A stretch of 64,000 bases of DNA from Anolis carolinensis (Eukaryota), in NCBI RefSeq assembly GCF_035594765.1, contig NC_085842.1:16468782-16532781 (forward strand). Direction: 5' to 3'. Under the pieces are notes generated by a model. That model ran no database searches, had not been told where the DNA came from, and was given only the letters and a program-made list of their open reading frames with translations. A program made the position numbers and the translations under genes. Positions 44,353 through 64,000 of the stretch are shown here, one piece after another (position 1 is the first letter of the stretch; every line of letters starts with the position of its first letter).

Positions 44353-44769
44353 GGGTGAGAAAAGCTGAGCAGGGAGAGAAAGGGAGAAGATTCTGGAAGT
44401 CCAATAGAAGTTTGGCGAGGGACAGAAAGAACTCGAAAAAGTATAAGGAAAGGTTAGAATATTAAATACTAATATTAAAACATACATATACATAATCAGC
44501 AACAACAGCTGTTACAGCAGTTCAGCAAATCATAACCATCTGGTGCAAGCAACAGAGAGACTGAGCTTAAGCAATCCAGGACTTTATTCAAAGAACATAA
44601 GTAGATAGGAAAGTTAACAGGGCCAAACTATCCATCTTACCCACAACAGACATAATTCCATGCTCATAGAAGAGCAAAGGGAACAGCTGCTTTGTGTCTC
44701 CTTTGTTGAGAGAAAAAGGGGACTCCCAATATATACTCCACATACCTGGCCATGCATCTTGTCCAGCCT

Positions 44770-46850
44770 TGATGACCGAAACCCCAGCTTTTAAATTAAT
44801 TTAAAAAACGCAGCAGAGAGTTCCGCAGATCACTCACCAAAGGAACGGAACGGGACCGCAGCAGACTATTATTAAAAAACCTTTTTTCTTCACTTTCCCC
44901 TTCCCTGCACTATGTAACAAATCCCCCAATAAAAGTAGCATTTATTTTAACAGTAACACTCTCTATCTGGTTATTTTGTGTCTTTTTCTGACTCCTTCCT
45001 TTGCATGTAATCTCTCTCTCCCCCTCGCTAACCCGTCTGATCTTTAAACCCTGGCGGAGGTTTCTCCGCCATAGATTAATACGGCGGGCGGTACAAATTG
45101 GCTCATATCTTTATCAAAACTACCTCTAGCATGCTCTTCTTTTAGTCCTAATCCTTTCTAAGGCTCCTGACTCAAGGACCACCAGCGGAACCGAAATCGG
45201 TCCAGTTCTCAGCACCTCAACAGCTGACTGTCAAACGGGACCGACTGCTCTTTCCAAGCCGGACTGCTTTCTTTCAGCCTTATCCCGGACTTTCCTCTCT
45301 CCGCGACACGCGGAATGGTTTTAAGAGATCCCTAGCCCCTTTCTGTGAATTGGGGATGGGGGGATCGCTCTCTCGCTGGGGAGACATAGTTCTCCACCCT
45401 CTCTACAGCTGCCAGGGGGTGCCTGGACGGGCGCCCTCCACGTTTCATTCATACCTTCATAATTTTGTGAAGGAGAAGAACACTCTTCCCCAGACCTACC
45501 CCTGGACTTATGAAATCCTATACTTCCAAAGACTGCAACCCACATGTGCCCCTTCCCCATGCCATCTCTATGAATTCCTTCCATCACAGATGAACTCTTT
45601 TTTCCTCATATATCCGTGAATTTTCATATTCTATGTACCTGGACACCCTCATGACTCACTGTCGTATGAATTTCTAATCGTTGGGCTAACTTCATGAATT
45701 GTGAAATCATGCTGCTAGAACTCCACTCCTATGACTTTCCATATTGGGTTCCCCAGATGTTGTGAACTTCGTTCTTATCAAATGTTTTCAATTGTTTATA
45801 TCATTCATGATTCCCCTTTGTGAAATGTAACTCACTTTTACGAATTCTCCCTTATTTCCATGAAATCTATCTGCCTATATGTATTTGTACTCTTTGGGAT
45901 CCCCGGAAAATATGTGTTTTTCCCAGTTGGGTTTATGTTCCAACTTTATTTTATTTTTCATTTTTTATCTCATATAATTGTCAAATCATGAGATCAAATG
46001 GGAAATGTTTTGACCCCAACATGAACCCTAGCCCCTATGACCCAGGCCTCCCTTCCCAAAAACAAAAGGATAATCTGCCACAGCTTAACCCAATCTAATC
46101 CAGATTGCATGGACAATATAAGGCTAAGAGTCACCAAATTCGGAATATAGTCCTAAAGGTGATTCAGCCCCCAGGGCAAACATTGTCATATCTCAGGGAA
46201 TTCCAGGACGCCCCACGTTGGGCGCCCTGTGGAGCCTGTCAATTTTGGCTCATCAACACCCATCACCACTTCCCCTCTGACACCCCAAGGCATATCTAAA
46301 ATCTGTGAATGTGACAGGACCCCGGACATCCTTGATGGGTGCCATTAATCCCTTTAGAAATCGGCCGGGCAAGGACTAATCCGGTCCTTCCTGCTTAGTC
46401 ACTTCATTGTTTCAATAGCTCCCGCGTCCCCCTCTCTGATTGGCCCGAGTGGGGACAAAAAGCGGCTCCCCATTGGGCCAGCAGAGCAAGGCGGGAAACG
46501 AAAGCCCGCCTCGTTCAACCTTCTAGCCTATCCGCGATCAGATGGGCGGGGGAGCGGGGCGGGAAATTCAAAGGGCTGTCAGACCGAAACATTGTATAAA
46601 TATGGCTTTATTTGAAACATATGATACGCTAGTAGACTGAATGATCGCTACTAGTGTCCTTTTCAGCTGAATCGCTCAATAAAGACTCCTTGGCGGATTT
46701 TCCTTCATCTTTGGCGGACCTTCTTCATTTCGGCTCCAGGTTGTATTGCGGCTCATATTCTCCTATTGGCTCCGCCAAGGTCCGTTCTCTCAGGACCGGA
46801 TCGGCTCTCTCCTTAAGGGGCCCGATCCCCCTAAAACGCGGTCGACAACA
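44770..46850 (+). mobile_element. Giant solo LTR (2081 bp) of an ERV-like family
   Basis: TGATGACCG...CGGTCGACAACA, 4-bp TSD gcct, empty paralogous site at 36696; homologous to 61307-63287. Confidence 0.85.
46435..46683 (+). promoter_or_regulatory. LTR core promoter and polyA signal
   Basis: two ATTGG (inverted CCAAT), GC boxes 46543-46563, TATAAA 46595-46600, AATAAA 46678-46683; the best-conserved part between the two LTR copies. Confidence 0.7.
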
Positions 46851-46904
46851 GCCTGAAACCTCTTTTTGTCTTCTGTCTTATTTTCAGTAACTCTTTCTTT
46901 GATG

Positions 46905-47945
46905 GATTGTTTTGAGTTCTCTGGGCTCTCTGGCCATGTTCCAGAAGAATTCTCTCCTGACATTTTGCCCACAACTATGGCAGGCAACCTCAGAGGTTGA
47001 GGTTTCTGTTGGAAAATAAGTAAGTGAGGTTTATATATCTGTGGAATGTCCAGGGTGGGGGAAAGAACCCTTGCCTGCTTGAAGTACAGTAGAGTCTCAC
47101 TTATCCAACACTCGCTTATCCAACGTTCTGGATTATCCAACACATTTTTGTAGTCAATGTTTTCAATATATTATGATATTTTGGTGATAAATTCATAAAT
47201 ACAGTAATTACTATGTAGCATTACTGCATATTGAACTACTTTTTCTGCCAAATTTGTTGTCTAACATGATGTTTTGGTGCTTCATTTGTAAAATCATAAC
47301 CTAATTTGATGCTTAATAGGCTTTTCCTTAATGCCTCATTATCCAACATATTTGCTTATCCAACATTCTGCCGGCCCGTTTATGTTGGATAAGTGAGACT
47401 CTACTGTATGTGTGAATGTTGCAAATTGCCACCTTGATTAGCATTTTAATGGCCTGCAGTTTCAAGACTTGGCTGGTTGATGCCTGGGGGAATTATTTGT
47501 TGGGAGGTGTTAGCTGGCCCTGATTGATTATTGTCTGGAATTCCCCTACTTTTTGAGTCTTGCTCTTTATTTACTGTCCTGATTTTAGAGTTTTTGAAAT
47601 ACTGGTAGCCAGATTGTGTTCATTTTCATGGTTTTCTCCTTTTTGTTGAAATTGTCCACATTCATGTGGGTCTCAATGGCTTCTCTGTGTAATCCGACAT
47701 GGTAGTTGTCAGAGTGGTTCATCAAGTGCTCTGCTATGGCTGACTTCTCAGGTTGAGTTAGTCTGCAGTGCCTTTCATGTTTCTTGATTAGTGTTTGGGC
47801 AATGCTACATTTGGTGGTCCCTAAGTAGACTTGTCCACAGCTTCACGGTATATGGTAGACTTCTGCAGAGGTGAGAGGATCCCTCTTGTCTTTGGCTGAA
47901 GGTAGCAGTTGTAGGATTTTATTCATGAGTCTGTAGATGGTTTGT
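46905..47945 (-). mobile_element. Penelope remnant with nested Tc1 MITE (47087-47406)
   Basis: ggccatgttccagaag terminal sequence, GIY-YIG-like ctgtggacaagtctac; MITE with both TIRs. Confidence 0.72.
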
Positions 47946-48229
47946 ATTCTCATCAGCTCCCCTATGCGTACAGTGTTTCTCTTGATAAATTGCAAGAACA
48001 CTTTTCCTCTGGGTGGATCTTTTTTTGATATTTCAGCAAAAGAAGCCAATTTGTTCAGAAAGAAATACTTTTTAAAATGTCAGTTATTCCTAAAAAAGCA
48101 ACAACAAAGAAGTACTATTTTAAAGTCATCTCACTCTATTACAGAAGTTCAGTCTCCTCGTGGTTTGGATGAAGGGTGATAGGGGAGGCGTTTTTTCTGG
48201 CAAAAGCTCTTTCGTAACTCCGGGCATTT

Positions 48230-48660
48230 AAAGGGTTCCTTCCCCTGTATGTGTCGCTTGATGAAGATGGAGTTGTCGCTTCAGTTTGAAACTTCTTTCA
48301 CTCCAAACAGTGAAACGGTTTTTCCCCAGTGTGGATTCTTTGATGTCGTATGAGGCTTGCCTTCAGTGTGAAACCCTTCCCACAATCCAAGCATTTGAAT
48401 TTTTTTTCCCCAGAGTGTGTTGCTTGATGAGCAATTAGACATCTTTTCTCTGTAAAAGAGCTTTCACACTCTAAGCATTTAAAGGGGTTTTCCCCAGTGT
48501 GGATTCTTTGATGTTGTTTGCGGTTTGCCTTCAGTGTGAAGCCCTTCCCACAATCCAAGCATTTGAATGGTTTTTCCCCAGAGTGTGTTGCTTGATGAGC
48601 AATTAGACATCTTTTCTCTGTAAAAGAGCTTTCACACTCTAAGAATTTAAAGGGTTTTTC
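48230..48660 (-). pseudogene. Gene 4: out-of-frame, decaying distal fingers
   Basis: after a +1 G at ~48660 the repeats continue with a Cys>Phe change, a Leu>Arg change and a TGA at 48298. Confidence 0.78.
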
Positions 48661-50601
48661 CCCCAGTATGGATTCTTTGATGTCGTGTGAGGCTTGCCTT
48701 CAGTGTAAAACCCTTCCCACAATCCAAGCATTTGAATGGTTTTTCCCCAGTGTGTGTTGCTTGATGAGCAATTAGACATCTTTTCTCTTTAAAAGAGCTT
48801 TCACACTCTAAGCATTTAAAGGGTTTTTCCCCAGTGTGGATTCTTTCATGTTGTGTGAGGTTTGCCTTCAGTGTGAAGCCCTTCCCACAATCCAAGCATT
48901 TGAATGGTTTTTCCCCAGAGTGTGTTGCCTGATGAGCATTTAGACATGTTTTCTCTGTAAAAGAGCTTTCACACTCTGAGCATTTAAATGGTTTTTTCCC
49001 ACTGTGGATTCTTTGATGTCGTATGAGGCTTGCCTTCAGTGTGAAACCCTTCCCACAATCCAAGCATTTGAATGGTTTTTCCCCAGAGTGTGTTGCTTGA
49101 TGAGCAATTAGACATCTTTTCTCTGTAAAAGAGCTTTCACACTCTGAGCATTTAAAGGGTTTTTCCCCAGTGTGGATTCTGTGATGTCGTGTGAGGCTTG
49201 CCTTCAGTGTGAAGCCCTTCCCACAGTCCAAGCATTTGAATGGCTTTCCCCCAGCATGAGTAGCTTCATGATTGGTGAGACCTGTCTTCTGAGTGAAACC
49301 CATACCACACTCCACGCATTGAAAGGGTTTCTCCCGCAAGTGAATTGTTTGATGAGAAGTGAGATGTCCCTTCAGAATAAAAGACTTTGCACACTCCAAG
49401 CATTTAAATGGTCTTTCCCCAGAATGAATTGCTTGATGGTAAGTCAGATACATCTTGTGAATGAAGCCCTTTCCACACTCCAAGCATTTAAAAGGCTTCT
49501 CCCCAGTATGAGTAGCTTGATGATAGGTGAGATTTGTCTTCTGAGTGAAGCCCTTTCCACACTCCAAGCATTTAAATGGCTTCTCCCCAGAATGAATTGC
49601 TAAATGACGAGTCAGGCTTATCTTGTGAATGAAGCCCTTTCCACACTCCAAGCATTTAAATGCCTTCTCCCCAGTATGGGTACCTTGATGAATGGTGAGG
49701 CTTATCTTCTGAGTGAAACACTTTCCACACTCCAAGCATTTAAAAGGCTTCTCCCCAGTATGGGTAGCTTGATGATAGGTAAGGCCTAACTTCTGAATGA
49801 AGCCCTTCCCACACTCCAAGCATTTAAATGGCTTCTCCCCTGTATGAGTAGTTTGATGAGACGTGAAGCTTATCTTGTGAATGAAGCCCTTTCCACACGC
49901 CAAGCATTTAAATGGCTTCTCCCCAGTATGTGTAGCCTGGTGATCGGTAAGGGCTGTCTTCTGAGTGAAACTCTTTCCACACTCCAAGCATTTAAAAGGC
50001 TTCTCCCCAGTATGGGTAGCTTGATGACGAGTCAGGCATATCTTCTGTATGAAGCCCTTTCCACAATCCAAGCATTTGAATGGCTTCTCCCCAGTATGGG
50101 TAGCTTGATGATAGGTGAGGCTTATCTTCTGAGTGAAACTCTTCCCACACTCCAAGCATTTAAATGGCTTCTCCCCAGTATGGGTAGCTTGATGATAGGT
50201 GAGATTTGTCTTCTGTTTGAAGCCCTTTCCACACTCAAAGCATTTAAATGGCTTCTCCCCAGTATGAATTGCTAAATGACGAGTCAGGCTTATCTTGTGA
50301 ATGAAGCCCTTTCCACACTCCAAGCATTTAAATGGCTTCTCCCTAGTATGAGTAGCTTGATGATAGGTGAGGCTTGTCTTCTGAACGAAGCCCTTTCCAC
50401 ACTCCAAGCATTTGAACTTTTTCTCTCCAGTGTGCATTGCTTCATGACGAGCAGTGCTTTTCTTATTAGGGAAACATTTTCCGCACTCCAAGCACTTAAA
50501 GGGCTTCCTCTTAGTGTACGTTGCTTGCTGACCAGAAAGGCCCAGCTCCTTGTTGTCTCCACAGTCCCAGTATTGAGATGATTCCCCTTCTCTGTGAGTT
50601 T
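48647..50601 (-). CDS. Gene 4: C2H2 zinc-finger exon (22 fingers)
   Basis: phase-1 acceptor tgtcaag|; spliced CDS 2868 nt, ~955 aa. Confidence 0.9.
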
Positions 50602-51299
50602 CTTGACAACAAAGAAAGAGAACACATATTAAAAAAAACAAAAATAGATATCATTAAAGTGCTCACAAGAACTTTAGGTAATCAATCCCTTTCTCTTACT
50701 TCAAGAGTTTTCTTGTACACTTATCTCAGAATCTACTTTCTTGTAACTTCCAACTATCAGACCTGGATGTATCCTCTTTTGCAAGACTAAATGCTAACTT
50801 CCTGAGGTAGCAAACCATAAAATCATGTAGAAGATACCACTTTCCCCAAGGCTCGGGTGGGTGAAACCATGGATATGAATATACAGGGCACATGCTATAG
50901 TTAACAGTTGAGCTGATTAACTGTGAAAAAAGAGTGCCTATTTCTGCATTTTCGGAAAGGTATTTCCAATAATAAACCAATTTACAAACAAGCAGTTCTT
51001 GTTGACTCAAAAACAGAACTGCTTCCCGTATTTTGTGACAACTCTGAGGGATTGCAGCCTAAAGATCTAAGTATTTTTGGGTTTTTGTTGTTGTATGATT
51101 GTTAATTTGTTTTGTATCAAAAACACTGCATAAATATAACACTTAAAAAAATAGAGGAAACACAAGCGGCTAGACAATTTTTGACCAAACATGGACAACA
51201 GCTAATAGATTGCTGATTGCCAATAGATGAGCATTAGAAAAGAAGGTGGACGACAAGAGTGGTTTGAACTTTGGGCTATGGATCTTCTAGACACTTATT

Positions 51300-53666
51300 T
51301 GTTGGAAATAGCAACCTTCTACAAGCCTCCTATACTAGTTATTTGTTATGTGTATAATTGAGATTGCTTACTATATTGTATGCATATATTGGTATGCAGT
51401 TTTCCCCTTAACTCTATGTTGTTTGAAGGTTGTGGGAGGGACTACAGACCATGTGACCAGATCTGGACTATTCAAACTGAGACTCCATTTTAGAAGTCAG
51501 TATGCTTCAGTTTGAGTTAGTATGTAGTATGCTTCAATATGTAGTTTAGCAAAGCACGCGATAGTATGTAGTTGACTACAGTATGTTGCAGGGAGTAGTC
51601 AGTTTATACTGAGTCTGTGTTCAGTAATGTATTAAACTGAAGAAAGTGTTAATCTGTACGCAAAAGGGAAGAGACTGAAACAGAATGCTTATAGAACAGA
51701 CTGTTTAAACTCTGAACCAATAAGCAGTGTACCTGTATACTGAATACATTATGTTTGTAAGTAAATCAACTCTGCAAGGAGAAGATGGGGTGATGGCGAC
51801 AGGGGACAGGGAAAAGGCAGAACTGCTCATTGCCTTCTTTGCCTCGGTCTTCTCACAAAAAGAAAGCCATCTTCAACCTCAGCAACATGGAATGGACGAA
51901 GGATTGGGGGAAATCCCACCTCAAATAGGGAAACAAGTTGTCCAGGAACACCTGGCCTCTCTAAACGAATTCAAGTCCCCAGGGCCAGATCAGCTACATC
52001 CAAGAGTATTGAAGGAATTAGCGGAAGTTATTTCAGAACCACTAGCAATTATCTTCGAGAGTTCTTGGAGAACGGGAGAAGTCCCAGCAGATTGGAGGAG
52101 GGCGAATGTGGTCCCTATCTTCAAGAAGGGAAAAAAGAACGACCCAAACAATTACCGTCCGGTCAGCCTCACATCGATACCAGGCAAGATTCTGGAAAAG
52201 ATCATCAAGGAAGTGGTCTGCGAACACTTAGAAACAAATGCGGTCATTGCTAATAGTCAACACGGATTTACCAAAAACAAGTCATGCCAGACTAATCTGA
52301 TCTCTTTTTTCGATAGAGTTACGAGTTGGGTCGATACAGGGAATGCTGTGGATGTAGCCTACCTGGATTTCAGTAAGGCCTTCGACAAAGTCCCCCACGA
52401 CCTTCTGGCAAATAAACTAGTTAAATGTGGGCTAGACAAAACTACGGTTAGGTGGATCTGTAATTGGCTAAGCGAACGAACCCAAAGGGTGCTCACCAAT
52501 GCGTCGTCTTCATCATGGAAAGAAGTGACAAGTGGAGTGCCTCAGGGCTCCGTCCTGGGCCCGGTTCTGTTCAACATCTTTATTAACGACTTAGACAAAG
52601 GGTTAGAAGGCACGATCATCAAGTTTGCAGACGACACCAAACTGGGAGGGATAGCCAACACCCCAGAAGACAGAAGCAGAATTCAAAACGATCTTGACAG
52701 ACTAGAGAGATGGGCCGAAACTAACAAAATGAAGTTCAACAGGGACAAATGCAAGATACTTCATTTCGGCAGAAAAAATGGAAATCAAAGATACAGAATG
52801 GGGGACGCCTGGCTTGACAGCAGTGTGTGCGAAAAAGACCTTGGAGTCCTCGTGGACAACAAGTTAAACATGAGCCAACAATGTGATGCAGCAGCTAAAA
52901 AAGCCAACGGGATTCTGGCCTGCATAAATAGGGGTATAGCGTCTAGATCCAGGGAAGTCATGCTCCCCCTCTATTCTGCCTTGGTCAGACCACACCTGGA
53001 ATACTGTGTCCAATTTTGGGCACCACAGTTGAAGGGAGATGTTGACAAGCTGGAAAGCGTCCAGAGGAGGGCGACTAAAATGATTAAAGGTCTGGAGAAC
53101 AAGCCCTATGAGGAGTGGCTTAAAGAGCTTGGCATGTTTAGCCTGCAGAAGAGAAGGCTGAGAGGAGACATGATAGCCATGTACAAATACGTGAAGGGAA
53201 GTCATAGGGAGGAGGGAGCAAGCTTGTTTTCTGCTGCCCTGCAGACCAGGACACGGAACAATGGCTTCAAACTACAGGAAAGGAGATTCCACCTGAACAT
53301 CAGGAAGAACTTCCTCACTGTGAGGGCTGTTCGACAGTGGAACTCTCTCCCCCGGGCTGTGGTGGAGGCTCCTTCCTTGGAGGCTTTTAAGCAGAGGCTG
53401 GATGGCCATCTGTCAGGGGTGCTTTGAATGCGATTTCCTGCTTCTTGGCAGGGGGTTGGACTGGATGGCCCATGAGGTTTCTTCCAACTCTACTATTCTA
53501 TGATTCTATGTTAACTTTTAACAAAGACTACGTATTTTTGGTCTACTGATAGCATGATTTAAAAGAAACATATTTTATGGAAAAGTAGATGTCTTTGGGC
53601 AACTGAAGTAACACTTCTGAAGATCTGCTATATGTTTTATTCATTGGCGTATCCTTATTCCTAACA
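51300..53666. mobile_element. Possible LTR (TGTT...AACA) interrupted by CR1
   Basis: tgttggaaata / tattcctaaca inverted ends, absent from gene 3 intron; no TSD found. Confidence 0.4.
51770..53510 (+). mobile_element. CR1 LINE, 5'-truncated, intact RT frame
   Basis: RT motifs; almost identical to 28743-30297; attctatg tail. Confidence 0.93.
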
Positions 53667-54005
53667 CTTCAAAGAGATAACCAGGAATATCAGTTTACCA
53701 ATGAAGAAACCTAAATTTCCTTGCATGAATACTAGTGGATATTTACCACTAAGGAGAAGATTGAGTCAAGCAAATTTTTAACTCTTCTCGGGAAGATCAT
53801 ACTTTATGATTATTCCAAATAGTGTGAATGCCAATTAAAATCCAAAAAGGATCACACTTCAAAATGGCTATGATGATTCTGGTTTTACAAAAGTTCTCAA
53901 AAAGGTCATGCCTTTCAAAAGGCTATGATTTCAAAAAATATTTGATTCCCTGCTCAGTCGTGGAAACCTACTGGGTGTCCTTGGGCGAATCACACAATAT
54001 CACAT

Positions 54006-54735
54006 AATCCTGACAAGACAGAGGTCCTCCAGGTCAGTAGCTCGGCTGATCGGGGCATAGGGTGGCAACCTGTGCTCGACGGGGTCGCAGTCCCCCTTAA
54101 GACGCAGGTCCGCAGCTTGGGGGTCCTCCTGGATTCAGCGCTGACGCTTGAGGCTGAGGTGTCGGCAGTAGCCAGGAGGGCCTTTGCACAGTTAAAGATT
54201 GTGCGCCAGCTGCGACCGTACCTAGTGAGGTCTGACTTGGCCATGGTGGTCAATGCCTTAGTTACCTCCAGGTTGGATTACTGCAATGCACTCTACGTGG
54301 GGCTGCCTTTGAAGACGGTTCGGAAACTACAGTTGGTACAAAGATCAGCGGACAGATTAATAACGGGAGCAAGTTATAAAGAGTGGTCAACTCTCTTGTT
54401 TAAACAGCTCCACTGGCTACGGATAAGTTTCCGGGCCCAATTCATGGTGCAGGTTATCACCTATAAATGCTTAAACGGTTCAGGACTTGCCTATCTCCGC
54501 GATCACCTCCTCCCCTATGAACCTACGCGGACCCTAAGATCATCCAGGGAGGCGCTTCTCTCGCTCCCGCCTTTGTCTCAAATGCAGCTGGTGGGGACGA
54601 GGGAGAGGGCCTTCTCGGCAATGGCCCCGCGGCTCTGGAACTCTCTCCCTAGGGAGATCAGATTGGCTCCCTCTTTGCCCATCTTTCGCCAGGAACTGAA
54701 AACGTGGATGTTCCGGTGTGCATTTGAATGAATAG
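54006..54735 (+). mobile_element. L2 LINE ORF2 C-terminal fragment (open frame)
   Basis: NPDKTEVL...ALVTSRLDYCNALYVGLP...RAFSAMAPRLWNSLP. Confidence 0.85.
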
Positions 54736-54874
54736 GCCCTTCAGACTTGTCTTCATACTGTTATTGGTTATGTTTACAAATGGTACATTCAGTGTTATTT
54801 TATCCTGCTATGAACCTATGCTAAGCCTGGTGAGTTCTCTCCCCCCCCCCCTTTTAAGTGGCATTATGCAGCTA

Positions 54875-55195
54875 CAGTAGAGTCTCACTTATCCAAGATA
54901 AACGGGCCAGCAGAACATTGGATAAGCGAAAGTCTTGGATAATAAGGAGGGATTAAGAAAAAAGCCTATTAAACACAAAATTACATTATGATTTTACAAA
55001 TTAGGCACCAAAACATCATGTTTTACAAGAAACTGACAGAAAAGTCAGTTCAATACACAGTAAAGTTATGTAGTAATTACTGTATTTATGAATTTAGCAT
55101 CAAAACATTGCAACATTGCAACTACAAAAACAATGACTACTAAAAGGCAGACTGACTTGGATAATACAGAACCTTGGATAAGTGAGACTCTACTG
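54875..55195. mobile_element. Tc1/mariner-type MITE
   Basis: both TIRs and TA flanks. Confidence 0.82.
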
Positions 55196-55249
55196 TATGT
55201 CATTCTGTTACTAATACTTTTTTTATATATATAAAAGAGGGAGCCTTAC

Positions 55250-55370
55250 TTAGAGAGGACACAGTCTCCATATTTTCCTTCATGACTTGTTGATGCAAGG
55301 CCCTTTGGTCCGGATCCAGCAGGGCCCACTCCTCCTCACTGAAAGACACGGTCACTTCTTGGAAGGTCAC
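55250..55370 (-). CDS. Gene 4: KRAB-A exon
   Basis: VTFQEVTVSFSEEEWALLDPDQRALHQQVMKENMETVSSL, 121 nt. Confidence 0.88.
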
Positions 55371-55513
55371 CTGGACAAAGAAACATTCTTGGTAAACATG
55401 AAACACTGACCCCAGCAGGTGGCCGATAGAGATATCCATATTTACACAGGGACTTGGCTGCAAGCATTTTGGATGGCATGATTTTAATATTGAATGTAAC
55501 GTTTATATATACA

Positions 55514-55981
55514 CAGTAGAGTCCCACTTATCTGACACACCGTATTATCCGACGCCCTGACCCCCGAGGCTATCCTCCCCTCCTCACTCGCTCACTCACT
55601 CACTCACCAGGCCGGATCCAGGTGCTGCCAGGACCTGGCCTGGTGAGTGAGTGAGTGAGCAAGGCATGGAGGGTGGGCGAGTGAAGGAGGACAGGAAAAG
55701 CCATCCCTTGCTCACTCACTCACTAACCAGGCAGGGTCCCGCTGCTGCTGGGACTCGGCCTAGTCAGTGAGCGAGGGACGGAGGGTGGGTAAGTGAAGGA
55801 GGGAGGCAAAGGCCCTCCCTCACGCGCTCACTCACTTACTTACTCACCAGGCCTGGTGCTGGTGCTTCTGTTGCTGCTGCCAGGACCCAGCCTGGTGAGT
55901 GAGCAAGGGAGGGCGAGCGGGCACCCATCCTGTTATCCGGCAGTATCGCTTACCCGACATTCTGCCCGCCAGACTCTACTG
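55514..55981. mobile_element. Tc1-TIR element with GC-rich (TCAC)n/(GTGA)n hairpin interior
   Basis: cagtagagtc / gactctactg ends; interior unrelated to the other MITEs. Confidence 0.6.
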
Positions 55982-56234
55982 TCCCACTGGGGGAGAAGAG
56001 CGGTATAGAAATTAAATAAATAAATAAATAAATAAATATTATTAAATTCATTTGTGTTTAAGCTTACTGTTTGTATGTGTTTCAAGGAATTGAATAATTG
56101 CCATAATATAAGCCACCTGAGTCCCCTTCGGGGTAGAAAAAGGCAGGGTATAAATAGGGTAAATAAATAAATAAGTAATTAAAATGGAAAGAGGGGAGAG
56201 CCCTTCTTGGTCCATAAGGGATTCTATCACCTAC

Positions 56235-56314
56235 CTGATCTGGTGTCATAGAATGTGTGTTGCATTCATCAAAAGGAAGATGGAAGCCAGTATGTGCTGG
56301 TTCTGATTCAACTC
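56235..56314 (-). CDS. Gene 4: linker exon 3
   Basis: 80 nt, open (VESEPAHTGFHLPFDECNTHSMTPDQ), canonical splice sites. Confidence 0.72.
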
Positions 56315-57078
56315 CTGTAGGAATAGAAAAGACAAGGGTATCTTAACTGGCCATGGTCTATATTTCTGGTAGTATCATTTTCCCAATAGTAAGAGCGGTT
56401 CAACAATGGAGTATGCTGTGACCTGTGAGTGTGATGGAGTCTCTCTCTGGAAGTTTTTACACAGAGGCAGGATGGCCATCCATTAGGAGTGCTTTGAATG
56501 TGTATCCCTGCATGGAAGGGAGCTGGGACTGGATTCCCCTTGTGGGCTCTTCCAACTCTAGGATTCCGTTATTTTATGATTCTATTATTCAATCATGGAA
56601 GGCACAGCCCTGTGATGGCACAACCTGAGTGCCTGGGAAGAGTAAGGCATTGTTGTTGTTGTTGTTGGTGAGTGCCTCCAGGCCAACTTTGACTGACGGT
56701 AATGCTATGATGAGGGACCTCCAAGCCAGGTCTGTTCAGGTCGTGGCGATTCAGGACAGCCAAGGCTCCCTTGGTGGAGTTCATCCTCCTACAGTCCAAT
56801 CTCTCTCTTTTCTTGCTGCCTTCTCTTTTAATAAAACTTACTGTCTTTTCTAGTGAGCCCTGTGTAATCATGATATGGCCACATTTCAACCATATCAGTT
56901 CAGACATCTTGGCTTCTCGTAGGAATTAAAGCTTGATTTTCTCTAGGACCCGTATATCTGCCTTTTTAGCAGATGGCATCCACGAAACTCTCCTCTAGCA
57001 CATTTCTTCACTTTCTTCACTGTATAGCTTTCACAGTCATACATAGAAAGGGGTACCTTGTGGCCTCTAATGTAGTCA

Positions 57079-57124
<46 letters not shown>

Positions 57125-58085
57125 GCGACATTTATATCCCACCCTTCTCACCCCAAAGGGGACTCAAAGCCACTATGAGAGCAGTTGACATCAGCAACAA
57201 CCTCTGGCCTGGATACTTCAGCCCTTTTATACACCCTGATCCCCATTGTGCTCTTTGAGAAATTTATCCTCCTCCTGCTTTTTGGTGGATATTGGGGAGA
57301 GAAACTTGTATCTAACCCATCTAACCCAACCTAAAAATAGGTTCTCACTATGGGAATAGCATAGTAATATGGATAGCAATATGACATTCTTTCAGCATAT
57401 TCCCCTCTTAACCTTCTGTTCTCCAGGCTAAGCATACATGGCTCCCTAAGCTGCCCCTCGTAGGGATTCATAATATCCAGATCTATGACCACTTTGGTCA
57501 TCTTTGTCCAGGGACAGCCACAGAGCCCTGTTGTTGTTTTAATTAATTCGTTTTTGAAAGGAAGTGCTTGGGGAGAAATAAGAAACGTTTAGGTTTGCAG
57601 CCGGACTTTTTCTCTGGTTTGCTACGAGCAGTGGCAATGGGAACAGACTGGGAGTAGGCGACAGCAGTGGAGAGGATGAACAGCCACAACACACCCACCA
57701 CATATGTCTGTGGCTTCAAAGTCACTGCACATTATCACATGGCTGAGATTGCTTTGGAAGACTTACTTAATGCATGTCGAGCAGCCCTAATTTTGAAAAA
57801 GAGCTACTTAAGCACAACATGAAGATTGGTTTGCAGGGGGTTTATGGTGCTGTCCTGTAAAGCTAGCCACCGTCAAACACAGTTCACCTCCCTAGGCACT
57901 ACATTCCTAATGATGCAGCCAAAAATACATTGTTATTTAAGCTTCTTGATTATACTGTTTACTCATGTTCAGTAGAACCTGTGTATCCAAAAGCTCCTAG
58001 ATCCCTTTCATACATATATATGTTCACTGAGCCACAGACTCAAAAGGAGTGGAGTAAAGCCATCCAAGTATGCATGGGTATTTAC

Positions 58086-58191
58086 TTGTGAAGCTGGGTA
58101 ATTCCTTTTGTTTGGCACAATCCAGTATCCGGCTAGAGGTGGAGGGGGGCCTTTCCAATGCGGTGGCCACTTCTGCCCACAAGTCCGCCAC
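58086..58191 (-). CDS. Gene 4: linker exon 2
   Basis: 106 nt, VADLWAEVATALERPPSTSSRILDCAKQKELPSFT. Confidence 0.72.
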
Positions 58192-58328
58192 CTGAAAAAA
58201 CACCAAAGGGACACAGATTAAAAAATGATAAGAAAACAAGGGAAAGAGGCGAGGGAGGGCTCTGGAGTTTGGCTTCCTTCATAATGTGTCACTACCTCCT
58301 TGAAAGCGTGGGGAGAAGATTCTCTCAC

Positions 58329-58934
58329 CTGTTGCTCCTTCTCCGTCTCCTCTTCTGCCTGACTCAGGAGGAATCCTTCAGCCAAAGCCACGGCCTGGGA
58401 ACTGGTCTCTGCCCCACATTCCCTCACCCAGCGCTCCATCTCTGCAGGAAGGACGGCCAGGAACTGCTCCAGGAGCACCAGGTCCAGCATCTCCGCCTTT
58501 GTATGTTTCTCAGGCTTCAGCCACAGGCGGCAGAGAGAGTGGAGGCGGCTGCAAACCTCTCGGGGCCCCAAAGCCTCCTTGTAGTTGAACTGCCTGAAGC
58601 TCTGGCTTGGCGCTGCCTCTGAAGGTGGGCTGTCTCCCAGCAGCCCCTTCCCCAAAAGGCCTCCTTCCCAGAATTGCCCTCCATTCCCAGCAGGAAAGGC
58701 AGGAGGGTCCGTGCTTGGCTCAGGGTCTAAGGCTTCTTGCTTTCCCACCTGCCCTGTGTCCTTGCAGCCAGGCTCCAGCCTGGGCAGAAGAGCCATCTCC
58801 CTCTTGGGAAGGCACACTCTCTCCTCCTCCACAAACCCTGCAAGGCTCATCCACTCACTCCTCCTCCTCCAGGAAGATTCCCACATGGCCAGAAGAGGAG
58901 GGACCTCGCCTGCAGGAGGCTTAGCATTGGCCAT
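58329..58934 (-). CDS. Gene 4: SCAN-domain exon
   Basis: ATG 58934, SCAN motif, 606 nt, CAG|gtgaga. Confidence 0.86.
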
Positions 58935-59624
58935 TGACTTCCCTTCTAGGAATACACATCATTTGCTTTAACTCTTCGGAAGCCAACTAGCAAAACCTCC
59001 CTCTAAAAGACATGGGAAGATGCTGCTTTCAAGGCATTTCCCCAGGAACAGGAGAGGGTTTGAATAACTTAAAGCAGCAGTTCCCAAACTCAGGTCCTTT
59101 GGATGTTTGGACTTTAATCACACAATCCGTAATCCTTGGCCAAGGAAGAGGTGGCTTCTGGGAGTTGGAAACCAAAACATCCCAGAATCCCATACACTGA
59201 CTAATGGTACTCTGTGTTATCAGACAGCTTACCTGCTTAAGGTATAGGACTATGCTGGGGCCCTAGACTTTAGTCCCCAAATGCTTTTAGAGCTGCAAAA
59301 GGAAACCACAGACAAATCAAATCAAGTTCAGCTGCTAGAACCGACCATTGTGGTGGCCTTTCTATGAACATATTATAGGTGGCCGGGGTGGATTACATAA
59401 ATAAAGTTTCACACAGGAACCAAGGTGACATTTGGGAGGTCCTCATGCAGAACCGCAGTAGCAGTTGAAGCGGATGAGTTTATTTTTGAAGAACCTTAGG
59501 TTGCAAAGAATGAAGATGCCAAATTTGGAAGATAAGAGCAGAGACAGATCGTTTTATTTCTTGTAACTTTAACAAAGTTCAAATCAATATCATCTAACGG
59601 CAATAGTCCACTCAAAAATATTGA

Positions 59625-60385
59625 TCTTGTTATTCAGGCTGTGCGGGCATGTTCCAGTAGCATTTTCTTCTGACCTTTTGTCTGCATCTGTGACTGGCAT
59701 CCTCAGAGGTTTGTTCAGAGTTCTGTTGGAAATGAGCCAAGTGGGGTGTATATATATATATACCTGTGGACTGTACAGGGTGGGAGAAGGAACACCTGTC
59801 TGTTTCAAGAAAGTGTGCATGTTGCAGTTAGCAAGCTTGAATAGCACTGAGTAGCCCTGGAGTGTGCTAAGTCAACCACTTAGGGTATTTGCATAGAGCT
59901 ATCCTTGTCTTCATTGCCTGGAGGCATCCTCTGTTGGGGAGGGGGTGTTTATTGCCATTTGTTTGCTGTCTGGAATTCCTGTTTCTGAGTGGTGTTCGTT
60001 ATTTACTGTTTTGATTCTGGTGTTTTTAAATGTTGGCAACCAGATTTTGTGCATTTTCAGAGTCTCCTCCTTTCTGTTTAAATTGTCCACGTGCTTGTGG
60101 ATTTCAGAGGCTTCTCTGTATAGCCTGCGATTATGGTTGCCAGAGTGGTCCAGCATTTCTGTGTTCTCAAGTAATATTCTGTTCCCCAGGTTGGTTCCTC
60201 AAGTGCTCAAGTCCTACATAGGTGGCCCCTATGTAGACTTCTTATCCACTGGTGCATGCTAAACGGAGATTCCTCCAGTGGTTAGAGGACCCCTCTTATC
60301 CTCTGCTGAACGTGGCATTTATTGAATATTCTTGGTGGGTCTGCATTGATCTTCCCACAAAACCCTGCAAGGGCTTCAGTCATTG
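59625..60385 (-). mobile_element. Penelope remnant paralogous to 34840-35760
   Basis: LYREASEIHKHVDNLNRKEE; same position within the duplicated unit. Confidence 0.72.
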
Positions 60386-61306
60386 ATTGCTGGGAGGGGT
60401 CTCTCCTGGTCAAAGGAAGTCTACTTCCATGAGACTTTTGTCTTCAGGCAGTCATTCTTGAAGTGTAAAGAGTGGCGACCACATTAATTCACACTAAGCA
60501 TGTCATATGGCTAGAACTGTGTCCATTCCTTTCCTTTCGGGAAGTCAGCTGAGAGGGGGGGAGAGGGGTGTCATCTCACTTTATACTTGAAGAATGACGG
60601 GCTGAAAAGGAGAGCCTCATGGAAGTGCCGTAAAACCTAACCATTCATACAGGAATGTTATGGGGAAATGCAAATACACAGATAAAGCCCTCCAGAGCAG
60701 TGTGCATTTATTTACATTGAAGCAGAACAATTACAACTTCTATCCAGTGAGTACATCAGCCTAAGCTGCAAGCCTCCTCCCCTCCAAATTTCAACCAGTA
60801 ATATGGTGAAGAATTGCAGTTTCATCCAGATTTGGGTAAGAATACGTCCATCACTTGTCATGAAAACTCATTAGACCTTTTCTCCTAGCATGACTTGAAT
60901 TACTCATTGATTAGATGGGAGGCTCAGCAATCATCAAAGGATGCAAAAGAGGAGCACATCAGTTGTATCATGGCTGAGCAGGGAGAGAAAGGGAGAAGGT
61001 TCTTAAAGCAATCTAAAAAGTATAAGGAAGGTTGAGAATATTAAATATTAATATTAAAATATGCATAGACATAATCAGCAACAACAGCCGTCGCAGCAGT
61101 TCAGCAAATCAGAAGCTTCTGGTGCAAGCAATAGAGCGACTGAGCTTAAACAATTGAGGAACAGAGTCAAACTTACAAAGACTTTATTCAAAGAACATAA
61201 GTAGGAAACTAACAGGGCTTAGCTATCCATCTAACACACAGCGGACATCTTCCCATGCTGATAGAAGAGCAAAGGGAACAGTTGTTTTGCGTCTCCTTTG
61301 TGAATA

Positions 61307-63287
61307 TGATGACCGTCACCCCGGCTTTCAAATTGATTTGAAAACGCAGCGGAGAGTTCCGTAGATCGCTCACCAAAGGAACGGAACGGGACCGCAGCAG
61401 ACTATTATTAAGAGATCTTTTTATTTCACTTTCCCCTTCCCTGAACTATGTAACAAAATCCCCCAATAAAAGTAGCATTTATTTTAACAATAACACTCTC
61501 TATCTGGTTATTTTGTATCTTTCTCTGACTCCTTCCTTTGCATGCAATTTCTCTCTCTCTCCCGTCCCTTTAACTCCGGCTGAGGTTTCTCCGCCATAGA
61601 TTAATATGGCGGACGATACAAATCGGCTCATATCTCTATCAAAATTACCCCTAGAACGCTCCTCTTTTAGTCCTAACCCTTTCTAAGGCTCCTGACTCGA
61701 AGACAACCAGCGGAACCGGAATCGGTCCAGTTTTCGGCACCTCAACAGCTGACTGTCAAACGGGACCGACGGCTCCTTTCAAGCTAAACTGCTGCCTTAT
61801 CCCGGACTTTCCTCTCCCCGCGGCCCGCGGAATGGTTTTAAGAGATCCCTAGCCCCTTTCTGTGAACTGGGGATGGGGGGATCGCTCTCTTGCTGGGGAA
61901 ACATAGTTCTCCAAGAACCCTTACCCTCTCTACAGCTGCCAGGGGGTGCCCGGACGGGTGCCCTCCACGTTTCATTCATACTTTCATAATTTTATGAAGG
62001 AGAAGAACACTCTTCCCCAGACCTACCCCTGGACTTATGAAATCTTATACTCCCAAAGACTATAACCCACATGTGCCCCTTCTTATGTACCTGGACACCC
62101 TCATGACTCACTGTTGTATGAATTTCTAATCGTTGGGCTAACTTCATGAATTGTGAAATCATGCTGCTAGAACTCCACTCTTATGAATTTCCATATTGGG
62201 TTCCCCAGATGTTGTGAACTTCGTTCTTATCAAATGTTTTCAATTGTTTATATCATTCATGATTCCCCTTTATGCAATGTCACCCACCTTTATGGATTCT
62301 CCTTTATTTCCTTGAAATCTATCTATCTGCCTATACGTATTTGTACTCTTTGGGATCCCCGGAAAATATGTATTTTTCCCAGCAGGGTTTATATTCCAAC
62401 TTTATTTTAATTTTCATTCTATCCCATATAATTGTCAAATCATGAAATCAAATGGAAAATATTATGACCCCAACGTGAACCCTAGCCCCCATGACCCAGA
62501 CCTCCCTTCCCAAAAACAAAAGGATAATCTGCCACAGTTTAATCCAATCTCATTCCGATCGCATGGACAATATAGGGCTTGAGTCACCAAATTCCTAAAG
62601 GTGACTCGCCCCCAAGGCAAACATTGTCATATCCCAGGCCAGGACGCCTCAGGAAGGCACCCCTGTGGAGCCCGTCAATGACGGCTCATCACCACCCTTC
62701 TTTACTTCCCGTCTGACACCCCAAAGACATATCTAAAAATCTGTGAACGTGACAGGACCCCGGACATCCTTGATGGGTGCCATTAATTCCTTTAGAAATC
62801 GGCTGGGCCAGAATTAATCTGATATTTCCTGTCCTGTCACCTCATTGTTTCAATAGCTCCCGCCTCCTCCTCTCTGATTGGCCCGAGTGGGGACAAAAAG
62901 CGGCTCCCCATTGGGCCAGCAGAGCAAGGCGGGAAACGAAAGCCCGCCTCGTTCAAACTCTCAGCCTATCCGCGATCAGATGGGCGGGGGAGCGGGGCGG
63001 GAAATTCAAAGGGCTGTCAGACCGAAACATTGTATAAATATGGCTTTATTTGAAACATATGTTACGCTAGTAGATTGAATGATCGCTATTAGCGTCCTTT
63101 TCAGCTGAATTGCTCAATAAAGACTCCTTGGCGGATTTTCCTTCACCCTTGGCAGACCTTCTTCATTTCAGGCTTCAGGTTGTATTGCGGCTTATATTCT
63201 CCTTTTGGCTTCGCCAAGGTCCGTTCCCTCAGGACCGGATCGGGTCTCTCCTTAAGGGCCCGATCCCCTAAAACGCGGTCGACAACA
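61307..63287 (+). mobile_element. 5' LTR (1981 bp) of an ERV-like provirus
   Basis: homologous end-to-end to 44770-46850; TATAAA 63033, AATAAA 63116; followed by a PBS rather than host DNA. Confidence 0.85.
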
Positions 63288-63292
63288 TAATT

Positions 63293-63313
63293 TGGCTTTA
63301 CCACGAAGGGACT
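63293..63313 (+). promoter_or_regulatory. Primer binding site, tRNA-Arg-like
   Basis: TGGCTTTACCACGAAGGGACT resembles the vertebrate tRNA-Arg(TCG) complement TGGCGACCACGAAGGGAC (from memory), 5 nt after the LTR. Confidence 0.65.
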
Positions 63314-64000
63314 TGCTTGGAAGTTCCAAAAAAAATCAATTTTTTTAGGCTAAAATTCCAAGCGGCGACCTTGGTCCAGATATTCTGGAACAGGTTGGGG
63401 AGAGAAACGGCTGCAAGGAGGGCCCTCCGACCAACAATTTGACCTCATTTCACATCCAAATTTCTCTGGCAGTCCCTTTCTCTCTCTAGATCTGATTCAG
63501 GGTACTGAACAAAGGAGCCAGATAGGAGGAAGCAGATTTTTAGCTCCTCGAAGGAAAAGCGCCAACGTGAAACAGGGGACGCCCTGGAAAAAAAAATAAA
63601 AGGGAACCGGCCCCGTTGTTGAGACCCAGGTGGGCGGAGCTCTGGAGGTATTGCACTTCGGATCAGGGCTCGGTAACAAATTCCTGGTGAAACACGGGAA
63701 CATCTGGCACCCGGGGGGCGTGTGAGAACAGTCTGGCTTGTAAGATTACAGGTTCAAGGATCGTGGGGTAGGGGAACGGTTGTGTTCCCGGGGCACCTGC
63801 GGATTCCACGAACGCCAGCCATTCAGCCTTGGTAGAAGGAACTCTTGAAAGGACGAGCTGACCTGGCCGGTTGGGTGAGTCGTTACTCCATTAACTGTCG
63901 GGTCTGGGCAGGGGCTGAGCCAAGGATGGGTGTTTGTTCAGCACGTCTAGGGTGTCCCACCCCAGCAGACATCCCCAGGGATTCTCCATTGGGTAAGATC
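63314..64000 (+). mobile_element. ERV internal leader region (continues past window)
   Basis: non-host, CpG-containing sequence after the PBS, with candidate splice donors (ggtgagt ~63875, ggtaag ~63992); no gag seen yet. Confidence 0.55.

What the first reader, a model, noticed from the sequence alone, without database searches (positions are those of the whole stretch)
44770..64000. ERV-like family with ~2-kb LTRs: solo LTR plus tRNA-Arg-primed provirus start
Seen: a 2081-bp TG..CA element with 4-bp TSD and an empty paralogous site, and a 1981-bp homologue followed by an Arg-like PBS and leader. TATA and AATAAA lie in the last ~260 nt, so U3 is ~1.8 kb. Established: a 4-bp TSD with a tRNA-Arg PBS fits class I (gamma/epsilon-like) ERVs, whose LTRs are usually well under 1 kb; very long U3s in MMTV and foamy viruses hold accessory genes or RNAs. 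No ORF is cleanly shared between the two copies. Inference: a possibly undescribed squamate ERV lineage with a large non-coding U3 cargo.
Basis: partly seen in the sequence, partly recalled or inferred. Interest (0 to 1): 0.7.

Follow-up and report, generated by a model that had tools for sequence, protein, structure and literature searches.

The report
Giant-LTR lizard retrovirus, second poly(A) site
These are copies of a young endogenous retrovirus of the green anole whose end repeats are about 2 kb long, show no maintained gene, and keep an extra poly(A) signal just behind the envelope gene, which likely lets the virus end some messages early while others read through to make full genomes.

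Summary
Real. 44770-46850 is a solo LTR (TSD GCCT, two empty paralogous sites). 61307-63287 is the first of three LTRs of a tandem, internally deleted provirus. The family has MLV-like gag-pro-pol and an ASLV-like env. That pairing is a published lineage, and three env loci of this very family are tips in a 2026 tree. At least 803 long-LTR copies exist, and LTR pairs differ by under 0.5%. U3 (about 1.85 kb) shows no maintained gene: 17-19% of indels keep frame, and substitutions lack the codon bias of env. One weak ORF signal remains (p 0.02, post hoc). It is kept in four diverged LTR lineages (1.8-2.4 kb) and in 37 of 38 env-bearing copies. An env-less 1.3-kb-LTR derivative (at least 775 copies) lost it and still spread. 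Best reading: a non-coding regulatory U3 with likely alternative polyadenylation, not yet tested on RNA. New variant of a known kind; interest 0.5.

The parts
44766..44769 (+). 5' target-site duplication GCCT (3' copy at 46851-46854)
   Evidence: empty paralogous site 36696-36699
44770..46850 (+). solo LTR, 2081 bp, lineage A; U3 about nt 1-1855, R-U5 about the last 225 nt (TSS inferred from TATA)
44913..44985 (+). proximal poly(A)-site signature: TGTA (44913), AATAAA (44928-44933), GU-rich stretch (44974-44985)
   Evidence: use on RNA untested
45044..45079 (+). short hairpin downstream of the proximal site; lineages B and C have stronger hairpins at this position
   Evidence: weak support in lineage A
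45219..45235 (+). AACAGCTG(A)-TGTCA island (E-box plus MEIS/PBX-like site; names recalled); the E-box core is shared by lineages A, B, C
45560..46040 (+). T-rich, indel-rich stretch with many RTGAA words; open frames here differ from copy to copy
46107..46118 (+). GCATGGACAAT island (octamer/Sox-like in lineage C; name recalled), positionally conserved
46438..46606 (+). promoter: two inverted CCAAT-type boxes, two GGCGGGAAA (E2F-like), CHR-like AATTCAAA, TATA at 46595 (site names recalled)
46662..46683 (+). TTCAGCTGAAT island and distal AATAAA in R
61307..63287 (+). 5' LTR (1981 bp) of a tandem LTR-3.8 kb-LTR-3.8 kb-LTR provirus; proximal site 61449-61522, TATA 63033, distal AATAAA 63116
63293..63312 (+). 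bulged tRNA-Arg(TCG) PBS, 5 nt after the LTR
63313..64000 (+). leader, candidate splice donor GGTGAGT at 63874, start of a broken gag remnant; beyond the window pol and env are mostly deleted and 1.6 kb with no match to the family's genes sits in their place

Best explanation
Both elements are LTRs of a young class I ERV (MLV-like gag-pro-pol, ASLV-like env) whose 1.85-kb U3 shows no maintained gene and likely works as a two-exit RNA end plus an enhancer. Shown: the LTR architecture, the gene set, the youth of the family, the lack of frame-keeping in U3, the conservation of a UGUA-AAUAAA-GU-rich site about 125 nt after the env stop, and that the whole U3 is copied (LTR pairs near-identical over 2 kb), so some RNA reads through to R. 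Inferred: part of the RNA is cleaved at the proximal site, giving short-tailed env (and possibly gag-pol) messages that lack R and cannot be reverse transcribed. This would spare env a 1.9-kb 3' UTR of the kind NMD targets. Read-through RNA would be the packaged genome. The distal 1.15 kb holds the promoter, motif islands, R and U5, and is all of this LTR that an env-less derivative kept while spreading. The window's own provirus is a non-autonomous deletion form moved in trans (inferred).
For: Genes: Gag_p30, RVP, RVT_1, RNase H, rve and MLVIN_C in one long copy. Best PDB hits are p80 RT/RNase H chains, E 2e-200 (MLV/XMRV identity of these chains recalled). Env TM best hits are ASLV chains, E 7e-13. 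87 of 150 scored env matches cover the TM query at >=90% identity, 71 of them in stop-free frames of >=421 aa (counted by hand). Youth: 1-9 substitutions per 2-kb LTR pair in 5 proviruses. Non-coding: distinct gaps that are multiples of 3 number 22 of 132 (A), 14 of 75 (B), 3 of 17 (C). N/S ratios in lineage A are 0.5-1.0 in all six frames against 0.05 and 0.16 for env in frame. Proximal site: full pattern in 65 of 66 A, 13 of 15 B, 6 of 7 C and 3 of 3 D LTRs; 3 matches in 59 kb x 2 strands of window background; column variability 0-0.0025 against LTR means of 0.058-0.066. A and B are mostly unalignable by BLASTN elsewhere in U3. The env stop ends at LTR nt 35 and the AATAAA starts at nt 162 in the copy checked. 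37 of 38 env-bearing 3' LTRs keep the site, and the exception is interrupted at nt 150. 0 of 28 short-LTR copies have it, and 0 of 17 short-LTR inter-LTR stretches match env. Long 3' UTRs are NMD targets for retroviral RNA (PMC9143442, passages).
Against: No RNA evidence of cleavage at the proximal site. A strong early site should cost genome RNA, and no regulator is identified. The loss in the short-LTR derivative is probably one recombination event, so it is a single independent contrast. The window's own env-deleted provirus still keeps the site. Some env-bearing copies have 130-218-aa U3 ORFs in a shared frame, with a slight synonymous excess (71 vs 59 expected, p 0.02, frame chosen after the fact). 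In LTR12 an AATAAAA acts as a TATA box. Motif names are recalled and no binding was tested.
Confidence: 0.5

Rival explanations
1. The proximal site acts mainly in the 5' LTR as a terminator. It ends host read-through transcripts, and the 1.6-kb spacer lets Pol II fall off before the viral promoter. Env plays no part.
For: Same conservation data. It gives a reason for the length of U3. Pol II terminating well downstream of a poly(A) site is established knowledge (recalled).
Against: The short-LTR derivative lacks both site and spacer and reached >=775 copies. The same site is present in the 3' LTR, where it would cut genome RNA anyway.
Confidence: 0.15
2. The proximal AATAAA is a TATA-like element of an internal promoter, as in ERV9/LTR12. 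It would start a 1.7-kb U3 non-coding RNA ending at the distal signal.
For: LTR12 uses AATAAAA about 30 nt upstream of its TSS and yields U3 RNAs (PMC11853044, passages). Hairpins follow the site in B and C (column-shuffle z -4.9 and -2.9).
Against: The flanking TGTA and GU-rich stretch are co-conserved and fit a poly(A) site. No conserved CCAAT or GC box lies upstream in the three-lineage alignment. Lineage A shows no alignment-level structure (z -0.6, 0 compensatory pairs). No Rfam match inside the LTRs.
Confidence: 0.12
3. U3 holds a decaying or lineage-limited accessory gene, like MMTV sag or foamy bet, around LTR nt 730-1390.
For: 12 env-bearing copies have ATG frames of 125-218 aa that share a core frame. 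The longest exceeds the shuffled 95th percentile of 148 aa. Synonymous excess p 0.02.
Against: Frameshifts are frequent and often shared by several env-bearing copies. Substitutions by codon position are 60/70/75 against 48/18/109 in env. Median longest ORF 86.5 vs 86 shuffled. No Pfam, protein-database or Atlas support. No protein-level match between A and B in this region.
Confidence: 0.1
4. The conserved island is only a DNA-level enhancer site (TGTAAC resembles bZIP half-sites, recalled) or a relic of an ancestral short LTR, and is not used on RNA.
For: It sits among other conserved enhancer-like islands.
Against: Three separate elements are kept with poly(A)-type spacing and a variable spacer. 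The proximal block is not similar to this LTR's own R-U5 (score below the shuffle mean).
Confidence: 0.13

Closest known systems
Gamma-pol / alpharetrovirus-like-env ERV lineage (AREs, Mab3/Mab4-like, CHIRalphaEnv relatives; PMC13568524: sections 10 and 11, passages, supplement search)
   Same: Gamma-like pol with alpha-type env, reported as widespread in reptiles. Three env loci of this family are tips of its tree.
   Different: Its main text does not mention Anolis. The bat LTRs it gives are 161-690 nt. No 2-kb LTR or U3 poly(A) site appeared in what I read.
HERV9 / LTR12 (PMC11853044, passages; HERVW9 grouping in PMC5753468, passages)
   Same: Class I with long U3 (up to >1,300 bp) and CCAAT-rich promoter. 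Arg PBS and 4-bp TSD in ERV9 are recalled.
   Different: LTR12 length comes from 41- and 72-bp tandem repeats, absent here. This LTR has a true TATA, two AATAAA signals and an alpha-type env.
Simian foamy virus LTRs (PMC6832937, one passage) and MMTV LTR (PMC2664473, passages)
   Same: Size class: Old World SFV mean 1696 bp, longest 2074 bp.
   Different: MMTV U3 carries the sag ORF, and foamy U3 overlaps bet and encodes miRNAs (recalled). Here no maintained ORF and no Rfam hit. The pol is class I.
HTLV-1 and HML4 displaced poly(A) signals (PMC2664473, passages)
   Same: AAUAAA placed unusually far from the end of R.
   Different: There a stem-loop bridges one signal to its cleavage site. Here the offset is about 1.7 kb and a normal distal AAUAAA also exists.
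BARE retrotransposon separate RNA pools (PMC3735527, search listing only)
   Same: The idea of separate translated and replicated RNA pools.
   Different: Plant element; its mechanism was not read here.

Membership tests
Class I (gamma-like) ERV | RT closest to MLV-type RT; gamma-type capsid and integrase C-terminal domain | tested here: met
   Gag_p30 1e-38, MLVIN_C 1e-14; best PDB hits p80 RT/RNase H; nearest RTs are bird ERVs at about 60% identity
Class I (gamma-like) ERV | gag and pro in one frame separated by a stop (read-through type) | tested here: met
   one copy: gag ends TGA-CTAG and pro follows in frame
Class I (gamma-like) ERV | TG...CA LTRs, 4-bp TSD, tRNA PBS, polypurine tract | tested here: met
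   TSD4 in 24 of 24 A, 12 of 15 B, 5 of 7 C solo-like copies, no 5- or 6-bp TSD; PBS; purine tract before 3' LTRs
Genus Gammaretrovirus proper | gamma-type env with CXXC in SU | tested here: not met
   no CXXC; 432-aa env; TM best matches ASLV; weak Avian_gp85 hit below cut-off
Gamma-pol/alpha-env (ARE) lineage | alpha-type env on a gamma-type pol | tested here: met
   family loci among the published tips
Gamma-pol/alpha-env (ARE) lineage | RT groups with ARTgagpol / CHIRalphaEnv RTs | not tested
   reference RTs not in hand; my unrooted tree (31 rows: the query plus 30 of 120 listed hits) only separates it, with bird, crocodilian, turtle and gecko ERVs, from other Anolis, lacertid and frog ERVs (100/99)
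HERV9/LTR12-type LTR | U3 built of about 41-bp tandem repeats; TATA-less or AATAAAA-driven promoter | tested here: not met
   no U3 array; TATAAA near the 3' end in 65 of 66 A, 15 of 15 B, 7 of 7 C
MMTV/foamy-type coding U3 | maintained ORF in U3 | tested here: not met
   one weak residual signal
Foamy/BLV-type small-RNA cassette | Pol III miRNA hairpins | tested here: inconclusive
   no Rfam hit at gathering level; no convincing A/B box pair; hairpins at nt 240-420 in B and C with 1-4 compensatory pairs; no small-RNA data
Named Repbase/Dfam Anolis ERV1 family | match to a library entry | not testable with these tools
   no such library available; an entry may well exist for a family this abundant

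The most novel reading that the evidence does not exclude
A recently active reptile retrovirus lineage with LTRs as long as or longer than any retroviral LTR I found reported (1.8-2.4 kb) uses alternative polyadenylation inside U3 to split translated env messages from packageable genomes. My searches found no such U3-internal switch for a retrovirus.
Probability: 0.4. Interest if true: 0.75.

Novelty: new variant of a known kind. Interest (0 to 1): 0.5.

Why it matters
Retroviruses are described as making one primary transcript that ends at R (PMC9143442, passages). A conserved second poly(A) site in U3 would be a different way to divide message from genome and to tolerate a very long U3. It can be tested with ordinary 3'-end sequencing in a model lizard. 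The family has also put at least 803 long and 775 short LTRs into this genome recently. All carry a promoter, and the long ones carry two poly(A) signals, so effects on host transcripts are plausible. Copies with a tRNA-perfect PBS scattered among bulged ones offer a natural record of primer copying in vivo.

Tried and rejected
RNA runs: no RNA holder listed. Two layings of 7 different contig-only runs showed no poly(A) loose end or canonical splice joint in the rows displayed, with most rows not shown. These are uninformative either way. Old-LTR duplication: the proximal block does not align to R-U5. Variable cargo bay: distances suggested one in lineage C, but typical C copies are collinear at about 1.87 kb and the antisense env piece in L084 was seen once only. 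U3 derived from gag, pol or env: no match beyond the env overlap. Long-range pairing between the proximal region and R: duplex predictions had no control and showed no shared helix. One search scored the distal AATAAA as 0 of 15 in B; that was a pattern error, and one search gives 15 of 15. The counts 762, 257 and 304 mix long and short LTRs, as learned. Rfam hits lie outside the LTRs, and the one has E = 1. Paper searches listed no description of these LTRs or of a U3-internal second poly(A) site. The library lacks most subscription journals, Repbase Reports and Dfam. bioRxiv supplements were not seen and may bear on novelty. Earlier scan notes held nothing on this family.
Full report
Observation. 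The window is a C2H2 zinc-finger gene cluster of Anolis carolinensis (source label and matching contig length). 44770-46850 is a 2081-bp TG...CA element flanked by GCCT. Two paralogous gene ends carry the empty site. 61307-63287 is a 1981-bp homologue followed by TAATT and a PBS. The host has two tRNA-Arg(TCG) genes whose 3' ends fit this PBS apart from a 2-nt bulge.

Beyond the window. The second LTR opens an array of three LTRs spaced 5754 bp apart. The two internal stretches are identical over 4001 bp, and the LTRs differ by 1 and by 5 substitutions plus a 9-bp gap. The internal region keeps the leader, a broken 5' gag, the end of integrase and the tail of env. The middle 1.6 kb has no match to the family's genes and recurs at 93-97% identity across most of the 40 scored places, so this is a non-autonomous subfamily. 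A longer copy elsewhere carries gag, pro, pol and env; its pro and pol lie in different frames. Pol is gamma-like. Its nearest database RTs are bird ERVs at about 60%. An unrooted tree of 31 rows groups it with bird, crocodilian, turtle and gecko ERVs, apart from other Anolis ERVs. Env is 432 aa, lacks CXXC, has CX6CC, and its TM matches ASLV best. Of 150 scored env matches, 87 span the TM query at 90% or more, and 71 of those lie in stop-free frames of at least 421 aa (hand count). LTR pairs differ by 0.05-0.45%; at neutral rates I recall, that is a few million years at most.

The long LTR is a lineage trait. Searches with diverged env neighbours gave four lineages: A 1921-2121 bp (the window's solo LTR plus 65 of 70 candidate loci that passed a length filter), B 2092-2368 bp (15 of 20), C 1830-1899 bp (7 of 28) and D 2219-2283 bp (3 of 4). 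The filter drops truncated or interrupted copies, so these ranges describe complete LTRs only. A and B share little by BLASTN outside the promoter, yet a multiple alignment keeps motif islands in order. Shared 8-mers number 22 against 5-8 in reversed controls. A second ERV family in the same genome, with a 519-aa env frame, has an LTR of about 490 bp by inspection. An exact lineage-A pattern occurs 803 times.

No maintained gene. Gaps that keep frame are 22 of 132 in A, 14 of 75 in B and 3 of 17 in C. No frame in lineage A shows a ratio under 0.5; the lowest in B is 0.34 in the first 300 nt. Env gives 0.05 and 0.16 in the same test. Against this, 12 env-bearing copies hold ATG frames of 125-218 aa with a shared core. 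In the longest, synonymous changes are 71 against 59 expected (p 0.02, frame chosen after the fact), but codon positions are nearly flat (60/70/75; env 48/18/109). Many frameshifts are shared among copies. Pfam, the protein database and the Atlas give nothing. Rfam gives nothing inside the LTRs. Hairpins follow nt 240 in B and C, weakly in A, with few compensatory pairs and a lenient control.

What is conserved. Env ends inside U3 at nt 35. About 125 nt later stands TGTA, then AATAAA, then a GU-rich stretch. The full pattern is present in 65 of 66 A, 13 of 15 B, 6 of 7 C and 3 of 3 D LTRs, and 3 times in 118 kb of background. Its hexamer is almost invariant where the LTR varies by about 6%. 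The distal AATAAA in R is also kept: 66 of 66, 15 of 15 and 7 of 7. A recombinant derivative with 1238-1390-bp LTRs (775 exact junction matches) swaps the first 830-920 nt for about 165 nt of other sequence and lacks the proximal site in 28 of 28 parsed copies (2 of 30 did not parse). It shows no env in 17 of 17 inter-LTR stretches, of which 16 matched the family leader. Env-bearing 3' LTRs keep the site in 37 of 38. This is probably one evolutionary contrast, and the window's env-deleted provirus keeps the site, so the link to env is suggestive only.

Mechanism. Shown: the whole U3 is reverse transcribed, so some RNA reads through to R, and the derivative spread with only the distal 1.15 kb of this LTR. 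Inferred: cleavage at the proximal site yields short-tailed messages without R, avoiding a 1.9-kb 3' UTR. Long 3' UTRs draw NMD on retroviral RNA (PMC9143442, passages). I put about 0.9 on a non-coding regulatory U3 and 0.5 on this specific mechanism. The rivals are a terminator in the 5' LTR, an LTR12-like internal promoter, a decayed accessory gene, and an unused motif. Public runs could not decide among them.

Known versus new. Gamma-pol/alpha-env ERVs are published as widespread in reptiles (PMC13568524, sections 10 and 11, passages). Three tips labelled Anolis carolinensis in its supplement overlap my env matches. It is therefore a member of a known lineage, and not a Gammaretrovirus proper by env. 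Class I LTRs reach beyond 1,300 bp in LTR12 (PMC11853044, passages). The longest SFV LTR cited is 2074 bp (PMC6832937, one passage). The longest vertebrate retroviral LTRs are said to be in betaretroviruses and spumaviruses (PMC2664473, passages). Ten paper searches did not list these LTRs or a second U3 poly(A) site; repeat libraries could not be checked. Also seen as passages: PMC5753468, PMC10435555 and bioRxiv 10.1101/2024.07.05.601823; none of the passages seen describes this family.

Verdict. A real feature and a new variant of a known kind. Interest 0.5, rising to about 0.75 if use of the proximal site is shown.

Noticed in passing
window 63293-63312 and family-wide: The PBS is mostly bulged. 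Of the first 100 of 304 listed junctions, 85 have TTT, 11 match one host Arg-TCG gene, 3 match the other (these could also be CpG decay) and 1 is another variant. Perfect copies fall at several places among bulged ones on a tree, as expected from copying of the primer. Why the bulge stays dominant is unexplained; escape from PBS-targeted silencing is a guess.
   Followed up: partly
window 44769/44770 and 61306/61307: Two independent insertions (different TSDs, 92% identical) sit about 60 bp apart in paralogous 3' ends of neighbouring zinc-finger genes, antisense to them. This suggests a local integration preference.
   Followed up: partly
window 61302-61306: The provirus's 5' junction reads GAATA, like the internal purine tract-LTR junction, instead of the GAGA found at the 3' end. 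Possibly overwritten by gene conversion within the tandem array.
   Followed up: no
G000:C2:16530088-16543567: Triple-LTR tandem with two identical internal stretches: a recent LTR-LTR unequal exchange or an assembly duplication. A similar array of four short LTRs lies at C1:38.79-38.81 Mb.
   Followed up: no
L035:2788-2794: Gag ends in TGA-CTAG, a read-through context I recall from alphaviruses and some mammalian genes, rather than the MLV UAG. One copy checked.
   Followed up: no
L031:1517-3140 and relatives: A 1.6-kb block with no match to the family's genes replaces gag-pol in a non-autonomous subfamily. Several members still lie next to an env with an open frame.
   Followed up: partly
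L079 (G000:C5:147419000-147428999): Mosaic LTR with lineage A ends and a B-like middle, showing module swapping within U3.
   Followed up: partly
L084:1606-1845: A lineage C LTR whose middle is replaced by an inverted env 3' fragment; seen once.
   Followed up: yes
L085, L086: A second young ERV family with a 519-aa env frame (about 32% identical TM) and an LTR of about 490 bp.
   Followed up: no
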